From: Eledone cirrhosa
Lineage: Eukaryota
DNA: 64,000 bases
Direction: 5' to 3'
Assembly: GCA_964016885.1 (NCBI GenBank)
Contig: OZ024748.1
Span: forward strand, 17,732,001 to 17,796,000
Shown here: positions 6,797-63,571 of the stretch, in pieces
Numbering within the stretch: the first letter of the stretch is position 1
Layout of the letters: each line of letters starts with the position of its first letter
Translations under genes and position numbers: made by a program
Notes under the pieces: model-generated
Told to the model about the DNA's origin: nothing
The model's database searches: none
The model's input: only the letters and a program-made list of their open reading frames with translations

Positions 6797-7269
6797 CACA
6801 ATTATATATATATAATTATATATATATATTTATATAATCTTATATACGTATATGTGTGTGTGTGTCATTATTATGTTCTTTAGTTATCAGGTGACATGAG
6901 ACATAAATGTAATGTTAAGTAATTCTTCATCTTACATCAATGTTAAGTAATTCTTCATCTTACATCAATATTTACACTACAAATATTTTCGCTTATTGTT
7001 ATATTTCTATATATTTTTTATTCTATATATTTTTTATATATATACATATTAATTTCCACCATTTATTCATTGTGTGTATAGCGAGGGAAAATAGATATTA
7101 AATTATATATATGTATATATATAGCATATATGTATATACATACATATATTAATTCAAAATATTAACAAAAATAGACATTCGTGTGATCAAGTATATTTTA
7201 TTATACATATTTCAGAGGTACTCAGCTATCTTATGGTTAAGATCTTATGGTTAAGATTCAGTCATGACT

Positions 7270-8763
7270 GAATTTTAACCATCTACTAAGTCAGGGTATA
7301 TCATGCATCATCTTATTTTATCTGATGAGGACATACTGTTGAATCTTAACCATCTACTAAGTCAGGGTATATCATGCATCATCTTATTTTATCTGATGAG
7401 GACATACTGTTGAATCTTAACCATCTACTAAGTCAGGGCATGTCATGCATCATCTTATTTTATCTGATGAGGACATACTGTTGAATCTTAACCATCTACT
7501 AAGTCAGGGCATGTCATGCATCATCTTATTTTATCTGATGAGGACATACTGTTGAATCTTAACCATCTACTAAGTCAGGGTATGTCATGCATCATCTTAT
7601 TTTATCTGATGAGGACATACTGTTGAATCTTAACCATCTACTAAGTCAGGGTATATCATGCATCATCTTATTTTATCTGATGAGGACATACTGTTGAATC
7701 TTAACCATCTACTAAGTCAGGGTATATCATGCATCATCTTATTTTATCTGATGAGGACATGCTGTTGAATCTTAACCATCTACTAAGTCAGGGTATATCA
7801 TGCATCATCTTATTTTATCTGATGAGGACATACTGTTGAATCTTAACCATCTACTAAGTCAGGGTATATCATGCATCATCTTATTTTATCTGATGAGGAC
7901 ATACTGTTGAATCTTAACCATCTACTAAGTCAGGGCATGTCATGCATCATCTTATTTTATCTGATGAGGACATACTGTTGAATCTTAACCATCTACTAAG
8001 TCAGGGTATATCATGCATCATCTTATTTTATCTGATGAGGACATACTGTTGAATCTTAACCATCTACTAAGTCAGGGTATATCATGCATCATCTTATTTT
8101 ATCTGATGAGGACATACTGTTGAATCTTAACCATCTACTAAGTCAGGGTATATCATGCATCATCTTATTTTATCTGATGAGGACATACTGTTGAATCTTA
8201 ACCATCTACTAAGTCAGGGTATATCATGCATCATCTTATTTTATCTGATGAGGACATACTGTTGAATCTTAACCATCTACTAAGTCAGGGTATATCATGC
8301 ATCATCTTATTTTATCTGATGAGGACATACTGTTGAATCTTAACCATCTACTAAGTCAGGGCATGTCATGCATCATCTTATTTTATCTGATGAGGACATA
8401 CTGTTGAATCTTAACCATCTACTAAGTCAGGGTATATCATGCATCATCTTATTTTATCTGATGAGGACATACTGTTGAATCTTAACCATCTACTAAGTCA
8501 GGGTATATCATGCATCATCTTATTTTATCTGATGAGGACATACTGTTGAATCTTAACCATCTACTAAGTCAGGGTATATCATGCATCATCTTATTTTATC
8601 TGATGAGGACATACTGTTGAATCTTAACCATCTACTAAGTCAGGGTATATCATGCATCATCTTATTTTATCTGATGAGGACATACTGTTGAATCTTAACC
8701 ATCTACTAAGTCAGAGTATGTCATGCATCATCTTATTTTATCTGATGAGGACGTACTGTTGAA
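7270..8763 (+). repeat. Tandem array, 21 x 71 bp, each unit carrying the 5' half of a hammerhead
   Basis: TCTGATGAGG recurs at 7321, 7392, 7463 ... 8741 (20 intervals of 71). Variants GGGTATATC/GGGCATGTC. Confidence 0.95.
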
Positions 8764-8800
8764 GATAGCTCAGTACCTCTAAAATATGTATAATAAAATA
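8734..8800 (+). ncRNA. Minimal hammerhead with G12A change (probably inactive copy)
   Basis: TATTTTAT CTGATGA ...GTACTG/CAGTAC... AAAA TATGTA TA ATAAAATA. The inverted arm (C7213) retains GAAA. Confidence 0.65.
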
Positions 8801-8942
8801 TACTTGATCACACAAATGTCTATTTTTGTTAATATTTTGAATTAATATTAATAACTCCGGGAAACCATTTTTTGTTGAGTGCTTCCAATCTATTGTAAAA
8901 CTCATTCTTTGATTTATTCATTGAACCTTGTTTAACCTTTAA

Positions 8943-8992
<50 letters not shown>

Positions 8993-9231
8993 TCATCATC
9001 ATTTTACATCCCCTTTTCCCTGCTTGCAAGGGTGGGACATATATATATATATATATATATAAAGAATTAATATCTAGTAACATATATACATACAGATGCA
9101 TATCAATGCTAGCAAATATATAGGTTTTGTCTTAGTAACTTTGTGGTTCAATGCATGGGGTTGCAGAACAATAATATGAGAGACGTAAAATAAGAAAATT
9201 ATTATAAAATTAACTTACTTACTAAAATATC

Positions 9232-9313
9232 ACTTCCAACTAATTAGTTTCTGGAATGGAATAAATATATTTTCCGAAGAAGATACGGAGAAGCATTCCG
9301 TCGTCAGGGAAGT
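9232..9313 (-). ncRNA. Hammerhead ribozyme (copy of 10252-10333)
   Basis: Reverse complement of the 10252 motif. Confidence 0.8.
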
Positions 9314-9763
9314 CTATTCTCATCTAAGTATCCAGGCAAAGCATGGACACTGGAAACTTATTAAAAAATAATTCAGTGGATAGAAAATAGCAAAGCGTGG
9401 ACTGAATTCCTAGCCATTGAGAAAATCACTGCCTCTGCGTCGGTGGCAAATTCAAAAATAATCAATCACGTGACATCGAGGTCAATCAGTGGAAAGTGGT
9501 TGCTAATAAGACAGCGGCCTGCCTGCTACCATAGCAGCAGTCATGGCCAATATTGCTCGACAAATAATTTGGAGATAATTATAAAGAATTAATATCCAGT
9601 AACATATATACATACAGATGCATATCAATTCTAGCAAATATATAGGTTTTGTCTTAGTAACTTTGTGGTTCAATGCATGGGGTTGCAGAACAATAACATG
9701 AGAGACGTAAAATAAGAAAATTATAAAATTAACTTACTTATATATATATATATATAAAATATC

Positions 9764-9845
9764 ACTTCCAACTAATTAGTTTCTGGAATGGAATAAATAT
9801 ATTTTCCGAAGAAGATACAGAGAAGCATTCCGTCGTCAGGGAAGT
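9764..9845 (-). ncRNA. Hammerhead ribozyme (second tandem copy)
   Basis: Reverse complement of the 10252 motif, one unit away from the 9232 copy. Confidence 0.8.
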
Positions 9846-10251
9846 CTATTCTCATCTAAGTATCCAGGCAAAGCGTTGCAACCCCATGCATTGAACCACA
9901 AAGTTACTAAGACAAAACCTATATATTTGCTAGCATTGATATGCATATGTATGTATATATGTTACTAGATATTAATTCTTTATAATTATCTCCAAATTAT
10001 TTGTCGAGCAATATTGGCCATGACTGCTGCTATGGTAGCAGGCAGGCCGCTGTCTTATTAGCAAACCACTTTCCACTGATTGACCTCGATGTCACGTGAT
10101 TGATTCTTTTTGAATTTGCCACCGACGCAGAGGCAGTGATTTTCTCAATGGCTAGGAATTCAGTCCACGCTTTGCTATTTTCTATCCACTGAATTATTTT
10201 TTAATAAGTTTCCAGTGTCCACGCTTTGCCTGGATACTTAGATGAGAATAG

Positions 10252-10333
10252 ACTTCCCTGACGACGGAATGCTTCTCCGTATCTTCTTCGGAAAATATAT
10301 TTATTCCATTCCAGAAACTAATTAGTTGGAAGT
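10252..10333 (+). ncRNA. Type I hammerhead ribozyme with long loop 2
   Basis: Stem I ACTTCC/GGAAGT; CTGACGA; stem II GGAATG/CATTCC; GAAA; palindromic CTAATTAG; GTT cleavage triplet. Confidence 0.8.
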
Positions 10334-10413
10334 GATATTTTAGTAAGTAAGTTAATTTTATAATTTTCTTATTTTACGTCTCTCATATATATATATATAT
10401 ATGTAAAATATAT

Positions 10414-10649
10414 AACGTAAAATTGGGATTATACTAAGGTATATCCTAATGTTTGTTGAGTGAGATGGAAGCCTGTCAGAGTATTGCTTAAAGCTTTCTC
10501 TGCTAATGTATTAAATATATACATATATATATATATATATGTATATATTTAATACATTAGCAGAGAAAGCTTTAAGCAATACTCTGACAGGCTTCCATCT
10601 CACTCAACAAACATTAGGATATACCTTAGTATAATCCCAATTTTACGTT
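10414..10649. repeat. Near-perfect palindrome centred on (TA)n
   Basis: AACGTAAAATTGGG...CCCAATTTTACGTT arms of ~105 bp. Confidence 0.9.
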
Positions 10650-11149
10650 TGGGGTGCTAACTATATGTATTTTGCGGATAGCCAGTTGTATTATTTTATG
10701 TGAGAAATAATTAAAATACATCTCCCTTTCCAAACAATTGTTTCATTATAAGTTTTCTACAAGTTGGAAAAATCTGTCCAAGTTATGTAGAAGCCTACAC
10801 ATAGTCCGTAGGAATATATGCAGGTGGTATATATATGTATATATATATGTATGTATGTATTATAAAATTGTAAGGTAAAGTAAAAGAAATAGGTTGTAGA
10901 AATTCTCCCTCTTAAGGCGAGTTTCAATCTTGTAATTCTGAAAACAGTCTTGGTTCATTGAAGTTTTGGCCAGTCCCTATATTTAAGAAGCAAGTCCCAA
11001 TATAGATAGACTTCATGTCAAACTCTCTACTGTTAGTTGACACACACATATTACATAAGTGTAGCTTTTACAAAGGTTTATCTTAACTGCAAAATCTCCT
11101 GTTATAAAGCATTTAAGCACTTAACTATTTTAAATTACATATACATGTC

Positions 11150-34701: not shown

Positions 34702-35345
34702 TTATGTTAGGTACTGTGTGCTGAGTGCAAATCTATTATCTGTTTGCGGGTTGTGTCTAAATATGAGCAAGGCTTCCTTAATTCTTAAATTTCCCACATT
34801 TCTATCACTGGCTTTAATCGTAACGGTAATATGTTTGGTGATGTTTCTACATTTGTCAATGTATTATTTAAATGAGGATGTGTGTGTTTTGAGGCGTTCT
34901 TTAATGCAAGTGTGGAGTGCTTGAGTCGTGCAACCAATGTAGAACTCCTTACATTTGCTGCATTCAATCCAGTATACCATATGTGTCTGCTGGCATATAC
35001 CTGTATTGCAGATAGGGCAGTTTGTCAGCGAGCATTGATTATTTTTGTCTCTTGATTGCTTTTTAGACAGATATCCACGCAGTGAGGGGCCGGAGTGTGC
35101 TAACTGTATGTCCAGTCCTTCTTTGTGGATAGCTCTGCGGATAGCTGTTGTTATGCTTCTGCTGAAATTTGATAATTTCATGAAGCAGGTGTTAGAGGAG
35201 GTTTATGTCTGTGGCACCTTCGGTTCTTAAGTTGATTCATTGTGGATGTTGGGTATCTGTTCGTCTTCAGTACATCCATAAAGTGTGCAGTGTAAGTGAT
35301 CTGATCTTCTGTCTTGCTACATTTATTGACCATGTGATTTGCATC
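34702..35345 (-). pseudogene. Penelope-like element ORF remnant (RT thumb, Cys-rich linker, GIY-YIG endonuclease)
   Basis: ...LKTNRYP..., CSLTNCPIC, VYWIECSKCKEFYIGCT, LRIKEALLIFRHNP. Frameshift near 35180 and an in-frame TAA at 34864. Degenerate HHR downstream at 34477-34515. Confidence 0.85.
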
Positions 35346-56691: not shown

Positions 56692-56725
<34 letters not shown>

Positions 56726-56732
<7 letters not shown>

Positions 56733-59700
56733 AGATCAAAAGATGGTTAAAGGAGTTCCATGTATTTTATTATGCGCATTTCAAAAACAAACATCATCAT
56801 GCAATAATATTTGTGTTTTCATCAGATAAAACAGGAGAACATGATATGAAGGCTAAAAAACACTTGTGGATAGTGCAGTTTTAAATCAACATATGAAAAG
56901 TGGTTTTAGATTGATGTGTGATATTGGGAAAAAAATATTTTATTTAGAGAGGGGGGGGGGGGGGTTGGAAAGGATGAAAAGGGAAGGAGATGAGAGGGAG
57001 AGATGGGTGATAGAGAGAAAGAGATAGTTTTTATAACTGAGAGGAGATATAGTTTTTACATAGAGAGGTTGAAAACCGTTGGAAGATACTGTATAAATTA
57101 AAAATTTTGAAAATTAGCGAAGGGAGGATAAGTGCGAGGAAAAAATATTTTATTTAGGGAGGGGGGGGAGGATGAAAAAAAAGGGGGAGGAGATGAGAGC
57201 GAAGGTGGAGAGGGAGAGATGGGTGATAGAGAGAAAGAGATAATTTTTATAACTGAGAAAAAGATATATTGTTTTAACATAGAGAGGTTGGGAACCGTTG
57301 GAAGATAATGTATAAATTAAAGGAATTTGAAAATTAACGAAGGGAAATTATGTATGAAGATAGAGAGAAAAAAATAATAATTGTGGATGAATATTCTAAC
57401 GTCAAAAAAAGAAATGTATGTATTGTGGCAATTTCAAAATTAACGAAGAGAAAAATTATTAAGGTTTGTGTGTAGAAGGATTTGAGAAAAATAATGTGAA
57501 GTTAAAGTTTGTATATTGGTTGAATTGATAATATATGCGAATAAAGAGTTAATATGTATTAATAATGAGTTCGTTGATGGGGAGAAAAAAATAATAAATT
57601 AAGGATGAAATTGAGATTAAAAAGATTTATGATAGAGAGAAAAAATAATAATGATTGCGGATGAATATTCTAACGTCAAAAAACAACAAATGTATATGTT
57701 ATGATTTTACAAGGTGAAGATAGAATGAGGGTAATGAGTAAATAAGTATTATAGAGTGTATAATGCCCTTTAAAGTAAAGTAGATGGGTATATTTTAAAG
57801 AGGTGTATGTTTATGTGCCTTTGAGAAAAGATTCTAAATTGATAAAGAATTGAATATTAACTGTATACTTTGTGAAAAGTTCTATGGAATTTATGCAGGC
57901 AGATAGAAAACAAATCTGTGCGTCTATTTATTATAGAATCTAGGTTAGAGATAATGGTAAATTTTTCATTTAGGCAGAGATTACAGATTTTAGATAGAGA
58001 GCTGTTCAAGTATGAGGATGCAGAAGAAATCTTCTTCCAAAAGATGGTATATTTAATGTTTTTTGTCTTTTAAGGACCATATGAGTTCTGAGAGAGCAGT
58101 GTTAGTTCTTTTAAGTTTGTATTTGAAAGATGAATGATGATTATAGAGACGAGCTTTAAAAGAGGTGGAAGTGGAGCCAAAATAGGTGACGGAATTGGTG
58201 CTAGTTATAATTTTACATTCATAAATTAAGTTTTTATCGAGACAATGGTTGTTGAGAGGACATTTATTTTTAATGCGGCAGTTGCAATTAGAGAGATTAT
58301 TAATGAGTGATCTAGTGTTATCTATAGAAGGAATTGGATTGGAGAAGTTATTTGCGATAGGAATAATAGTTTCTTGATTTAGAGTTGGATTATGAACATT
58401 TAGCGAAGTTGTGTTTGACGTTGTATTTGGGTTTACAGAACTCATATGGTCCTTAAAAGACAAAAACATTAAATATACCATCTTTTGGAAGAAGATTTCT
58501 TCTGCATCCTCATACTTGAACAGCTCTCTATCTAAAATCTGTAATCTCTGCCTAAATGAAAAATTTACCATTATCTCTAACCTAGATTCTATAATAAATA
58601 GACGCACAGATTTGTTTTCTATCTGCCTGCATAAATTCCATAGAACTTTTCACAAAGTATACAGTTAATATTCAATTCTTTATCAATTTAGAATCTTTTC
58701 TCAAAGGCACATATACATACACCTCTTTAAAATATACCCATCTACCTTACTTTAAAGGGCATTATACACTCTATAATACTTATTTACTCATTACCCTCAT
58801 TCTATCTTCACCTTGTAAAATCATAACATATACATTTGTTGTTTTTTGACGTTAGAATATTCATCCGCAATCATTATTATTTTTTCTCTCTATCATAAAT
58901 CTTTTTAATCTCAATTTCATCCTTAATTTATTATTTTTTTCTCCCCATCAACGAACTCATTATTAATACATATTAACTCTTTATTCGCATATATTATCAA
59001 TTCAACCAATATACAAACTTTAACTTCACATTATTTTTCTCAAATCCTTCTACACACAAACCTTAATAATTTTTCTCTTCGTTAATTTTGAAATTGCCAC
59101 AATACATACATTTCTTTTTATGACGTTAGAATATTCATCCACAATTATTATTTTTTTCTCTCTATCTTCATACATAATTTCCCTTCGTTAATTTTCAAAT
59201 TCCTTTAATTTATACATTATCTTCCAACGGTTCCCAACCTCTCTATGTTAAAACAATATATCTTTTTCTCAGTTATAAAAACTATCTCTTTCTCTCTATC
59301 ACCCATCTCTCCCTCTCCACCTTCACTCTCATCTCCTCCCCCTTTTTTTTCATCCTTTCCACCCCCCCTCCCTAAATAAAATATTTTTTCCTCGCACATA
59401 TCCTCCCTTCGTTAATTTTCAAAATTTTTAATTTATACAGTATCTTCCAACGGTTTTCAACCTCTCTATGTAAAAACTATATCTCCTCTCAGTTATAAAA
59501 ACTATCTCTTTCTCTCTATCACCCATCTCTCCCTCTCATCTCCTTCCCTTTTCATCCTTTCCAACCCCCCCCCCCTCTCTAAATAAAATATTTTTTTCCC
59601 AATATCACACATCAATCTAAAACCACTTTTCATATGTTGATTTAAAACTGCACTATCCACAAGTGTTTTTTAGCCTTCATATCATGTTCTCCTGTTTTAT

Positions 59701-59890
59701 CTGATGAAAACACAAATATTATTGCATGATGATGTTTGTTTTTGAAATGCGCATAATAAAATACATGGAACTCCTTTAACCATCTTTTGATCTTATATTA
59801 TGCATACTCCAGTCCTACAAACTGTAGAGTGCTTCTTATCCGATATCTGCATTGCTTTATTGTACTACAATAAAACTCACCTCCTACATA
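56726..59890. mobile_element. Inverted PLE insertion forming a 3.1-kb palindrome; HHRs at 56765-56831 (-) and 59695-59761 (+)
   Basis: Arms 56726-58090 and 58436-59800 are near-identical around a 345-bp spacer. TTTTAT CTGATGA...GAAA TGCGCA TA ATAAAA. Confidence 0.92.
57857..58435 (-). pseudogene. PLE GIY-YIG endonuclease domain (Naiad-like signature)
   Basis: CNCRIKNKCPLNNHCL, LIYEC..TYFGST, FKARLYNH, LSELIWSLK, CNLCLNEK, INRRTDLFSICLH. A +1 frameshift near 58060 is absent from the right arm. Confidence 0.85.
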
Positions 59891-63261: not shown

Positions 63262-63571
63262 ATAATATAAGATCGAAAGATGGTTAAAAGAGTTCCAAGT
63301 ATTTTATTATGCGCATTTCAAAAACAAATATCATCCTGGGATGATATCTGCATTTTCATCAGATAAAATAGGGATACATGATATGAAGCTTAAAAAACAC
63401 TTGTGAATAGTGAAGTTTTAAATCAACATATGAAATGAGCATAATAAAATACTTGGAACTCTTTTAACCATCTTTCGATCTTATATTATTTATACTCCAG
63501 TCCTACAAACTGTAGAGTGCTACTTATCCGATATTTGCTTTATTGTGCTACAATAAAACTCACCTCCTACA
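63262..63571. mobile_element. PLE 3' terminus fold-back with HHR at 63302-63368 (-)
   Basis: Diverged copy of the 33719/59630 family; (TA)n flanks. Confidence 0.85.

What the first reader, a model, noticed from the sequence alone, without database searches (positions are those of the whole stretch)
9058..10389. Second ~522-nt hammerhead concatemer with three ribozyme copies
Seen: ~1.55 tandem units on - and ~1 inverted unit on +. Both orientations read through the same unit junction, and both outer ends lie in (TA)n. Each unit has an HHR with a long loop 2 and a palindromic CTAATTAG stem III. Inference: the two tandem HHRs (9764 and 9232) could release a ~530-nt monomer from a minus-strand transcript, so this locus could be an active source of circles.
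Basis: partly seen in the sequence, partly recalled or inferred. Interest (0 to 1): 0.85.

Follow-up and report, generated by a model that had tools for sequence, protein, structure and literature searches.

The report
Twin-primed Penelope-type hammerhead retrozyme insertion
This is one insertion of a small non-coding repeat whose hammerhead-shaped RNA motif occurs about 2,500 times in the genome, and its two facing arms end at two different fixed points, which likely shows a Penelope-type enzyme copying one RNA from both cut DNA ends rather than a dedicated source of RNA circles.

Summary
The anatomy is confirmed: an 819-nt minus arm (1.55 units of 522 nt) faces a 513-nt plus arm, with three type I hammerhead folds and (TA)n outside. 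The fold is real (covariation) but atypical: fixed GUU site, an extra base on each side of stem II, no Rfam hit. The locus is one of many young copies (2,542 exact motif copies; 12,847 with sister families). Arms have scattered 5' ends but two fixed 3' ends, 64 and 180 nt past the cut site. Head-to-head insertions pair one short with one long end in 46 of 47 resolved loci; a sister family and an autonomous Hydra-like Penelope element do the same. Both arms share one template lineage. Best reading: a non-autonomous Penelope-like element (non-LTR retrozyme) inserted by twin target-primed reverse transcription from an uncut or circular RNA. A 532-nt monomer is geometrically possible, but nothing marks this locus as a source: no RNA data, no daughters among 122 loci. 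Side finding: the sister family's long ends carry expanded (CT)n (256 versus 13), suggesting repeat addition at priming. Known kind; the strict end pairing and the stutter are new and testable.

The parts
9058..9876 (-). Long-end arm: u238-522 + u1-522; 5'-truncated at the junction, 3' end at u522 (long end, with the 116-nt tail) running into (TA)n
9877..10389 (+). Short-end arm: u415-522 + u1-406; 5'-truncated at the junction, 3' end at u406 (short end, no tail) running into (TA)n
9764..9845 (-). Type I hammerhead fold 1, predicted cut after 9770 (GUU)
9232..9313 (-). Type I hammerhead fold 2, predicted cut after 9238 (GUU)
10252..10333 (+). Type I hammerhead fold 3, predicted cut after 10327 (GUU)
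9238..9769 (-). Would-be 532-nt monomer between the two tandem cut sites, with a private TA insert; release untested
9058..9173 (-). Tail u407-522 between the two fixed 3' ends; holds a predicted hairpin just before the long end
9876..9877 (.). Head-to-head junction of the two 5'-truncated arms
   Evidence: junction overlaps at other loci
9039..9060 (.). Left (TA)n flank
10386..10402 (.). Right (TA)n flank

Best explanation
The locus is one copy of a dispersed, young, non-coding 522-nt hammerhead repeat with two fixed 3' ends, and it was likely inserted in a single event by a Penelope-like reverse transcriptase/endonuclease that primed both cut ends of a (TA)n target on the same RNA, one at each fixed site. 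Shown: copy number, two fixed 3' ends, scattered 5' ends, one long plus one short end per inverted insertion, both arms from one sequence lineage, (TA)n flanks, the same pattern in an autonomous Penelope-like element of this genome. Inferred: a GIY-YIG endonuclease cuts both strands of (TA)n; one 3' end starts cDNA at u522, the other at u406; each cDNA runs a variable distance, through the hammerhead site and the unit junction, so the template was an uncut multimer or a religated circle (circle about 55%); the two cDNA 3' ends join by short homology to give the head-to-head junction (twin priming about 70%); when the second arm aborts, a single tandem arm results. The hammerhead is kept under selection but is likely slow (GUU, two-copy helix III), cutting only some transcripts. 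The enzyme that moves this family was not identified.
For: 2,542 exact 20-mers, control 0. In 94 loci taken in genome order, 139 of 157 arms end at u401-410 or u519-522 and 52 loci hold a head-to-head junction; 76 of 82 such ends in the first sample abut TA runs. End pairing: 20 of 21, replicated 15 of 15 in new loci, two of which are duplicates; pooled with duplicates dropped 46 long+short against 1 like pair, 9 more with one odd end, p 3e-13. Sister family (77% identical): 28 long+short against 2 like pairs, one doubtful. Autonomous 809-aa Hydra-like element: 14 of 15 two-orientation loci long+short, 1 unresolved. Opposite arms differ by 2.7%, tandem units by 2.5%, different loci by 7.3%; at lineage-diagnostic columns arms differ 0.04 against 0.33 for controls, 20 of 21 loci at 0.11 or less. 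Differences within a locus are 74% private (436 of 592) against 26% between loci. Junction overlap of 1 nt or more in 41 of 56. Hammerhead: 97.6% of cells paired, 31 two-sided changes, 0 of 500 shuffles as high. Literature: partial tandems, inverted 5'-truncated copy, tail at one end, (TA)n targets (PMC8557442, passages and Hydra section); two RT start sites and cutting of both strands in vitro (PMC11167929, main text); retrozymes as non-autonomous PLEs (bioRxiv 10.64898/2026.07.22.740005, parts 1-3).
Against: No autonomous element with DNA similarity to the unit among 85 RT/GIY-YIG loci examined; the one hit (L203) is a separate sister-family insertion. One locus (L087) has arms of different lineages. 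Shared lineage of arms could also come from one dominant source at a time, not one molecule. Some private letters are shared by neighbouring units in long arrays (L089), which a single pass round a circle does not explain. Target-site duplications cannot be read inside (TA)n. In vitro, PAc showed no difference in start site between the two strands and did not need its hammerhead (PMC11167929). Samples were anchored on the hammerhead motif, so read-through of the cut site is over-represented.
Confidence: 0.82

Rival explanations
1. This locus is itself an active source: a minus-strand transcript self-cleaves at both tandem sites and the 532-nt monomer is circularised and retrotransposed.
For: All three cores match the family's commonest state; two-copy helix III predicted at about 0.45; related animal retrozymes make abundant circles and work better as dimers (PMC7229834, passages).
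Against: No locus among 122 carries two of the six marker letters, none the TA insert; fold-back with the inverted arm and low stem I/II probabilities; GUU site; 8 of 9 Xenopus retrozyme dimers did not cleave in vitro (bioRxiv 10.64898/2026.07.22.740005, part 3). Only part of the subfamily (368 exact motif copies) was sampled.
Confidence: 0.12
2. The head-to-head structure arises by self-priming (fold-back) on an antisense template, as proposed for rotifer Penelope elements, not by two target-primed starts.
For: Some junctions sit in palindromes with overlaps of 11-35 nt; model stated in PMC3846280 (discussion passage).
Against: Most junctions join unrelated unit positions with overlaps of 0-5 nt; fold-back gives no reason for the second arm to stop at the other fixed end in 46 of 47 loci.
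Confidence: 0.1
3. The tandem units come from an uncut linear multimer transcribed from a tandem source locus or from template jumps, and no circle is involved; the hammerhead is then a slow or protein-assisted element with another role.
For: Unprocessed RNA was the main substrate for PAc (PMC11167929); GUU fixed in 2,542 against 11 other triplets; arrays of five or more units exist as possible sources; only 9 of 139 arms exceed two units.
Against: Within-array differences are mostly private, as expected if one monomer was copied repeatedly; the fold is conserved by compensatory changes across families 70-80% identical.
Confidence: 0.4
4. The duplication and inversion are an assembly artefact, a DNA-level rearrangement or two independent insertions side by side.
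For: No Logan contig piece listed spans the whole stretch (weak: short contigs).
Against: The same architecture with different breakpoints at 52 of 94 loci; arms differ at several positions; independent insertions would give about half like pairs, against 1 of 47.
Confidence: 0.03

Closest known systems
Metazoan non-LTR retrozymes (Cervera and de la Pena 2020, PMC7229834; Li, Clavereau and Pollet 2026, bioRxiv 10.64898/2026.07.22.740005)
   Same: Non-coding AT-rich tandem units, one type I hammerhead per unit, palindromic helix III, unit size inside the 51-972 bp range of the 2026 survey.
   Different: Larger than the 170-400 nt circles of the 2020 paper; mostly dispersed 1-2 unit insertions, over half inverted; fixed GUU and an extra A before G12. 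The word 'inverted' does not occur in PMC7229834. Circles not shown here.
EN+ Penelope-like elements (Penelope/Poseidon, Neptune, Hydra, Naiad): pseudo-LTRs, inverted 5'-truncated copy, optional tail (PMC8557442, PMC3846280)
   Same: 5' truncation, partial tandems, head-to-head inversion, tail at one end, (TA)n insertion sites, hammerhead upstream of the ends.
   Different: No ORF; tail is 116 nt rather than 30-40; pairing of tailed with untailed end is near-absolute here rather than 'optional' or 'often'; no sequence parent found.
PAc (Poseidon of Anolis) in vitro system (PMC11167929)
   Same: Two internal reverse-transcription start sites downstream of the hammerhead, AT-rich target, both strands cut and extended, template not cut at the hammerhead.
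   Different: There the start is not homologous to the target; here both ends fall on UA-alternating template stretches matching (TA)n. Coordinated use of the two sites in one event and repeat addition were not reported in the parts read.
L1 twin priming and priming slippage (twin priming recalled; A-tail expansion in PMC3415434, search listing only)
   Same: Two primers on one RNA give an inverted 5' segment; slippage at priming lengthens a terminal repeat.
   Different: In L1 the second start is variable and the arms do not overlap in template; here it is fixed and the arms overlap by up to a full unit.

Membership tests
Type I hammerhead ribozyme | Core CUGANGA ... GAAA ... UH with stems I, II, III | tested here: met
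   covariation in stems I and II and the loop-2 hairpin, (first try had a mis-registered structure and is void)
Type I hammerhead ribozyme | G10.1-C11.1 directly flanking the core | tested here: inconclusive
   G-C pair present in 143 of about 150 segments but with an invariant extra C before it and extra A after it (149 of 149); the 5' extra base is known in PLE hammerheads (PMC4209133), the 3' one I did not find in the parts read
Type I hammerhead ribozyme | NUH cleavage triplet | tested here: met
   GUU in 2,542 copies, other H in 11; GUC and AUC reported as most efficient, GUU cleavable (PMC9217987, passages)
Type I hammerhead ribozyme | Match to a curated Rfam hammerhead model | tested here: not met
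   no hammerhead family even at E 5
Type I hammerhead ribozyme | Self-cleavage; loop 1-loop 2 tertiary contact | not testable with these tools
   fold energy only: hammerhead-constrained -12.4 against MFE -14.8 kcal/mol
Non-LTR retrozyme | Non-coding tandem units each with a type I hammerhead, at least two in a row | tested here: met
   no credible ORF over the locus
Non-LTR retrozyme | Expressed as linear and circular monomers | not testable with these tools
   no RNA holder listed
Non-autonomous Penelope-like element | 5'-truncated partial tandems, inverted upstream copy, two 3' ends (tail), (TA)n sites | tested here: met
Non-autonomous Penelope-like element | Sequence similarity to the pseudo-LTR of an autonomous PLE | tested here: inconclusive
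   none among 85 loci of about eight ORF-bearing families, out of more than 10,000 GIY-YIG candidates and about 48,000 Hydra-like candidates
Non-autonomous Penelope-like element | Target-site duplication | not testable with these tools
   masked by (TA)n on both sides; empty-site attempt failed
Satellite DNA grown by unequal crossover | Long arrays at few loci with ragged ends | tested here: not met
   dispersed, two fixed ends, 9 of 139 arms over two units

The most novel reading that the evidence does not exclude
A Penelope-type reverse transcriptase acts as an asymmetric pair on one circular hammerhead RNA, starting at two fixed sites from the two cut strands, and at the long site it re-copies a 2-4 nt template stretch next to a hairpin many times before moving on, as telomerase does. 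The microsatellites around these elements would then be partly products, not only targets, and this 12,847-copy superfamily with its autonomous partners would be a direct maker of (CT)n(AT)n repeats in a microsatellite-rich genome.
Probability: 0.35. Interest if true: 0.82.

Novelty: new variant of a known kind. Interest (0 to 1): 0.55.

Why it matters
How Penelope-like elements, the sister group of telomerase, make their inverted repeats, one-sided tails and microsatellite bias is named as an open problem in PMC8557442. Here three families in one genome give a sharp rule (one long plus one short end per inverted insertion, both arms from one lineage) that separates twin priming from the published self-priming model, and a sister family shows terminal (CT)n growth that its internal junctions lack. 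A 522-nt RNA and several young intact ORFs in the same genome make both points directly testable. The locus itself is ordinary among its family.

Tried and rejected
RNA evidence: no RNA holder listed; three DNA-type contig sets of one sample were laid and tell nothing on ends, strand or circles. Rfam: no hit. A-to-I editing footprint: A>G 114 against T>C 148, p 0.76 overall; an excess in the score-picked set (30 against 19, p 0.009) did not replicate (11 against 28): rejected. 5' ends at the cut site: 4 of 157 against 2.4 expected, no pile-up, but sampling is biased against such ends; the apparent cluster came from duplicated loci. Longer TA tract at the long end in this family: no (medians 37.5 and 36.5, p 0.75). 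Empty-site comparison failed: the probe matched TA runs and the output was cut. Parent search: none found; L203 looked like a parent and proved a separate insertion. An antisense hammerhead in loop 2 was considered from the sequence and rejected (no GAAA). Monomer MFE fold does not give the hammerhead (z -0.34). Earlier findings: none. Paper searches for Penelope with twin priming, repeat addition, slippage and octopus with hammerhead listed no paper that, by title and abstract start, reports the end pairing or the CT growth; subscription papers and all supplements were not seen and may hold it.

Full report
Observation. The stretch is as described. Taking window 9579 to 9058 (minus strand) as unit u1-522, the minus arm 9876 to 9058 is u238-522 followed by u1-522 and the plus arm 9877 to about 10389 is u415-522 followed by u1-406. 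The arms meet at their 5'-truncated ends and their 3' ends run out into (TA)n. Three hammerhead folds have cores at 9839, 9307 (minus) and 10258 (plus), with predicted cuts after 9770, 9238 and 10327. The piece between the two tandem cuts is 532 nt and carries a private TA insert. The unit matches nowhere else in the window.

The ribozyme. Rfam gives no match and the isolated motif does not fold as a hammerhead by default (z -0.34; constrained fold -12.4 against -14.8 kcal/mol). The fold is nevertheless conserved: in 17 diverse copies (of 23 cluster representatives from 314 motifs; I left out junction chimeras and deleted forms, and added L203) 97.6% of cells pair, six pairs change on both sides and none of 500 shuffles reaches the covariation score (relatedness inflates such scores). 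It departs from the canon in three fixed ways: GUU at the cut site (2,542 copies against 11 with another base), an extra C before G10.1 and an extra A after C11.1 (149 of 149 segments). Helix III is a 10-nt palindrome that is predicted to pair between the two tandem copies (about 0.45) more than within one (0.03-0.18), the two-copy mode described for animal hammerheads (PMC4209133, parts 1-2 read). Activity is untested.

The family. The genome is 3.0 Gb; the host was not identified. A 20-mer of the motif occurs 2,542 times, reversed control 0, the window's subfamily marker 368 times, and an 18-mer shared with sister families 12,847 times. These count motifs, not insertions. In 94 loci taken in genome order (first places listed on C1, two samples, overlaps and duplicates dropped) 139 of 157 arms end at u401-410 or u519-522, 5' ends are spread over the unit, and 52 loci hold a head-to-head junction. 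The two ends lie 64 and 180 nt past the cut site, so neither is the cut site.

The end rule. In simple head-to-head loci one arm ends short and the other long: 20 of 21 in the first sample, 15 of 15 in a second sample fetched afterwards, two being duplicates, and 46 against 1 pooled with the score-picked loci, with 9 more loci having one odd end (p 3e-13). The window locus obeys it. A sister family of 539 nt, 77% identical, gave 28 long+short against two like pairs, one of them doubtful, among 54 loci examined (these were selected for having a long end, so only the other end is free). A very abundant autonomous element of this genome, 809 aa with DKT, CxCX5C and CxxC motifs as listed for the Hydra clade (no Pfam hit; weak similarity to an RT/GIY-YIG protein), has its own hammerhead, two ends about 90 nt apart and the same pairing in 14 of 15 two-orientation loci among 20 that I picked from 150 listed.

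One template. Opposite arms of a locus differ by 2.7% and tandem units by 2.5%, against 7.3% between loci. At 63 lineage-diagnostic columns arms differ 0.04 against 0.33 for controls; 13 of 21 loci show no difference and one (L087) is mixed. Several lineages show similar levels of private change (0.004-0.006 per site in the four main clusters), so mixing was probably possible. Within-locus differences are 74% private against 26% between loci, which fits repeated copying of one monomer, though some neighbours in L089 share private letters. Of 139 canonical arms 132 cross at least one cut site and 55 exceed one unit; this is inflated by anchoring on the motif, but it shows that uncut or religated RNA served as template. 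Junctions show 1 nt or more of overlap in 41 of 56 (BLAST overlap, no chance control).

Mechanism. Shown: two fixed ends, their pairing, shared lineage, (TA)n flanks, the same pattern in an ORF-bearing PLE. Inferred: a PLE endonuclease cuts both strands of (TA)n, each end primes on the same RNA at a different fixed site, both cDNAs run a variable way, and their ends join by short homology. This fits PAc, which cuts and extends both strands from two internal sites and uses uncut RNA (PMC11167929, parts 1-2 read), and the partial tandems, inverted copy and one-sided tail of PLEs (PMC8557442, passages and Hydra section; PMC3846280, passages). The self-priming model in PMC3846280 does not predict the pairing. 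Circle against linear multimer is open. No parent was found among 85 ORF-bearing loci; the single hit was a separate sister insertion.

Is this locus a source of circles? Nothing shows it. No RNA run is listed. None of 122 other loci carries two of the monomer's six marker letters, 18 carry one, and no fetched locus has the TA insert. A transcript entering from the right would fold back on the inverted arm. In Xenopus 8 of 9 tested dimers did not cleave (bioRxiv 10.64898/2026.07.22.740005, parts 1-3 read), while coral, mussel and axolotl retrozymes do give circles (PMC7229834, passages). Reads across the cut site cannot decide it, because ligation restores the genomic sequence.

Repeat growth at the long end. 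In the sister family the template has two CT units followed by ATAT at the long end. Internal junctions keep this (224 copies), but termini have three and a half or more CT units in 256 cases and the template length in 13 (termini with a single CT were not counted). Runs reach 45 units; in the 23 long ends not selected for CT, 20 have three or more extra units. The opposite flank holds a CT run in 2 of 48 loci and only 48 of 1,904 background TA tracts start after one, so a split compound target is unlikely; the three TC units at this family's short end never grew (0 of 82 termini). The likely cause is slippage at priming, next to a predicted hairpin, resembling telomerase repeat addition. Against it: TA runs at long and short ends of the window's own family are equal, and growth after insertion is not excluded. 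Slippage at priming is known for L1 (PMC3415434, listing only).

Comparison and novelty. It works like a non-autonomous Penelope-like element and meets the testable features of a non-LTR retrozyme; self-cleavage, circles and the parent are unshown. That link is in print (2026 preprint), as are the inversion and the one-sided tail. My searches listed nothing that reports the near-absolute pairing of ends, the shared template of the arms, the fixed GUU variant or CT growth for an EN+ PLE; subscription papers and supplements were not seen. An editing footprint was sought and rejected.

Verdict. Observation confirmed, interpretation partly supported. New variant of a known kind; interest 0.55, carried by the family-level rule and the repeat growth rather than by this locus.

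Noticed in passing
G000 sister family, e.g. L215-L244, L265-L294: 539-nt sister unit whose long ends carry (CT)n of up to 45 units between element and (AT)n, while internal junctions keep two: possible repeat addition at priming.
   Followed up: yes
window 56725-59801: Head-to-head insertion (98.8% arms of 1,370 nt) of the very abundant young Hydra-like PLE, with hammerheads at 56825 (-) and 59701 (+); further copies of that hammerhead at 63362 and 33907. About 48,000 candidates genome-wide.
   Followed up: partly
window 7269-8763: 21 copies of a 71-nt unit, 98% alike, each with a CUGAUGA core, enclosed by an 87-nt inverted repeat (7146-7232 and 8762-8848); high depth.
   Followed up: no
window 653, 14012/14199, 43295, 47652/47798, 51927: Other type I hammerhead families, two as facing pairs; 43295 and 51927 also have one unpaired base on each side of stem II.
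   Followed up: no
window 10393-10670: 140-nt-arm palindrome (93%) centred on a TA run, directly beside the locus.
   Followed up: no
window 34864-35202; L129-L143: GIY-YIG fragment that led to a young 860-aa RT/GIY-YIG PLE family with tandem and head-to-head copies and a variant core (CCGAAGA) upstream of its ORF.
   Followed up: partly
L195-L214: At least five more young PLE families with long open frames (Neptune-like by recalled motifs), candidates for the missing partner.
   Followed up: partly
L056, L058: The 5' end of the unit joins directly to a different repeat (in L056 another hammerhead family): nested insertion or a two-RNA event.
   Followed up: partly
unit u292-298: Loop-2 positions vary within single loci far more often than any other column (u293 in 18 cases); cause unknown.
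   Followed up: no
C1:142896272-142902387 (L277-L279): A sister-family insertion amplified with its flanks as a 1,547-bp tandem repeat.
   Followed up: no
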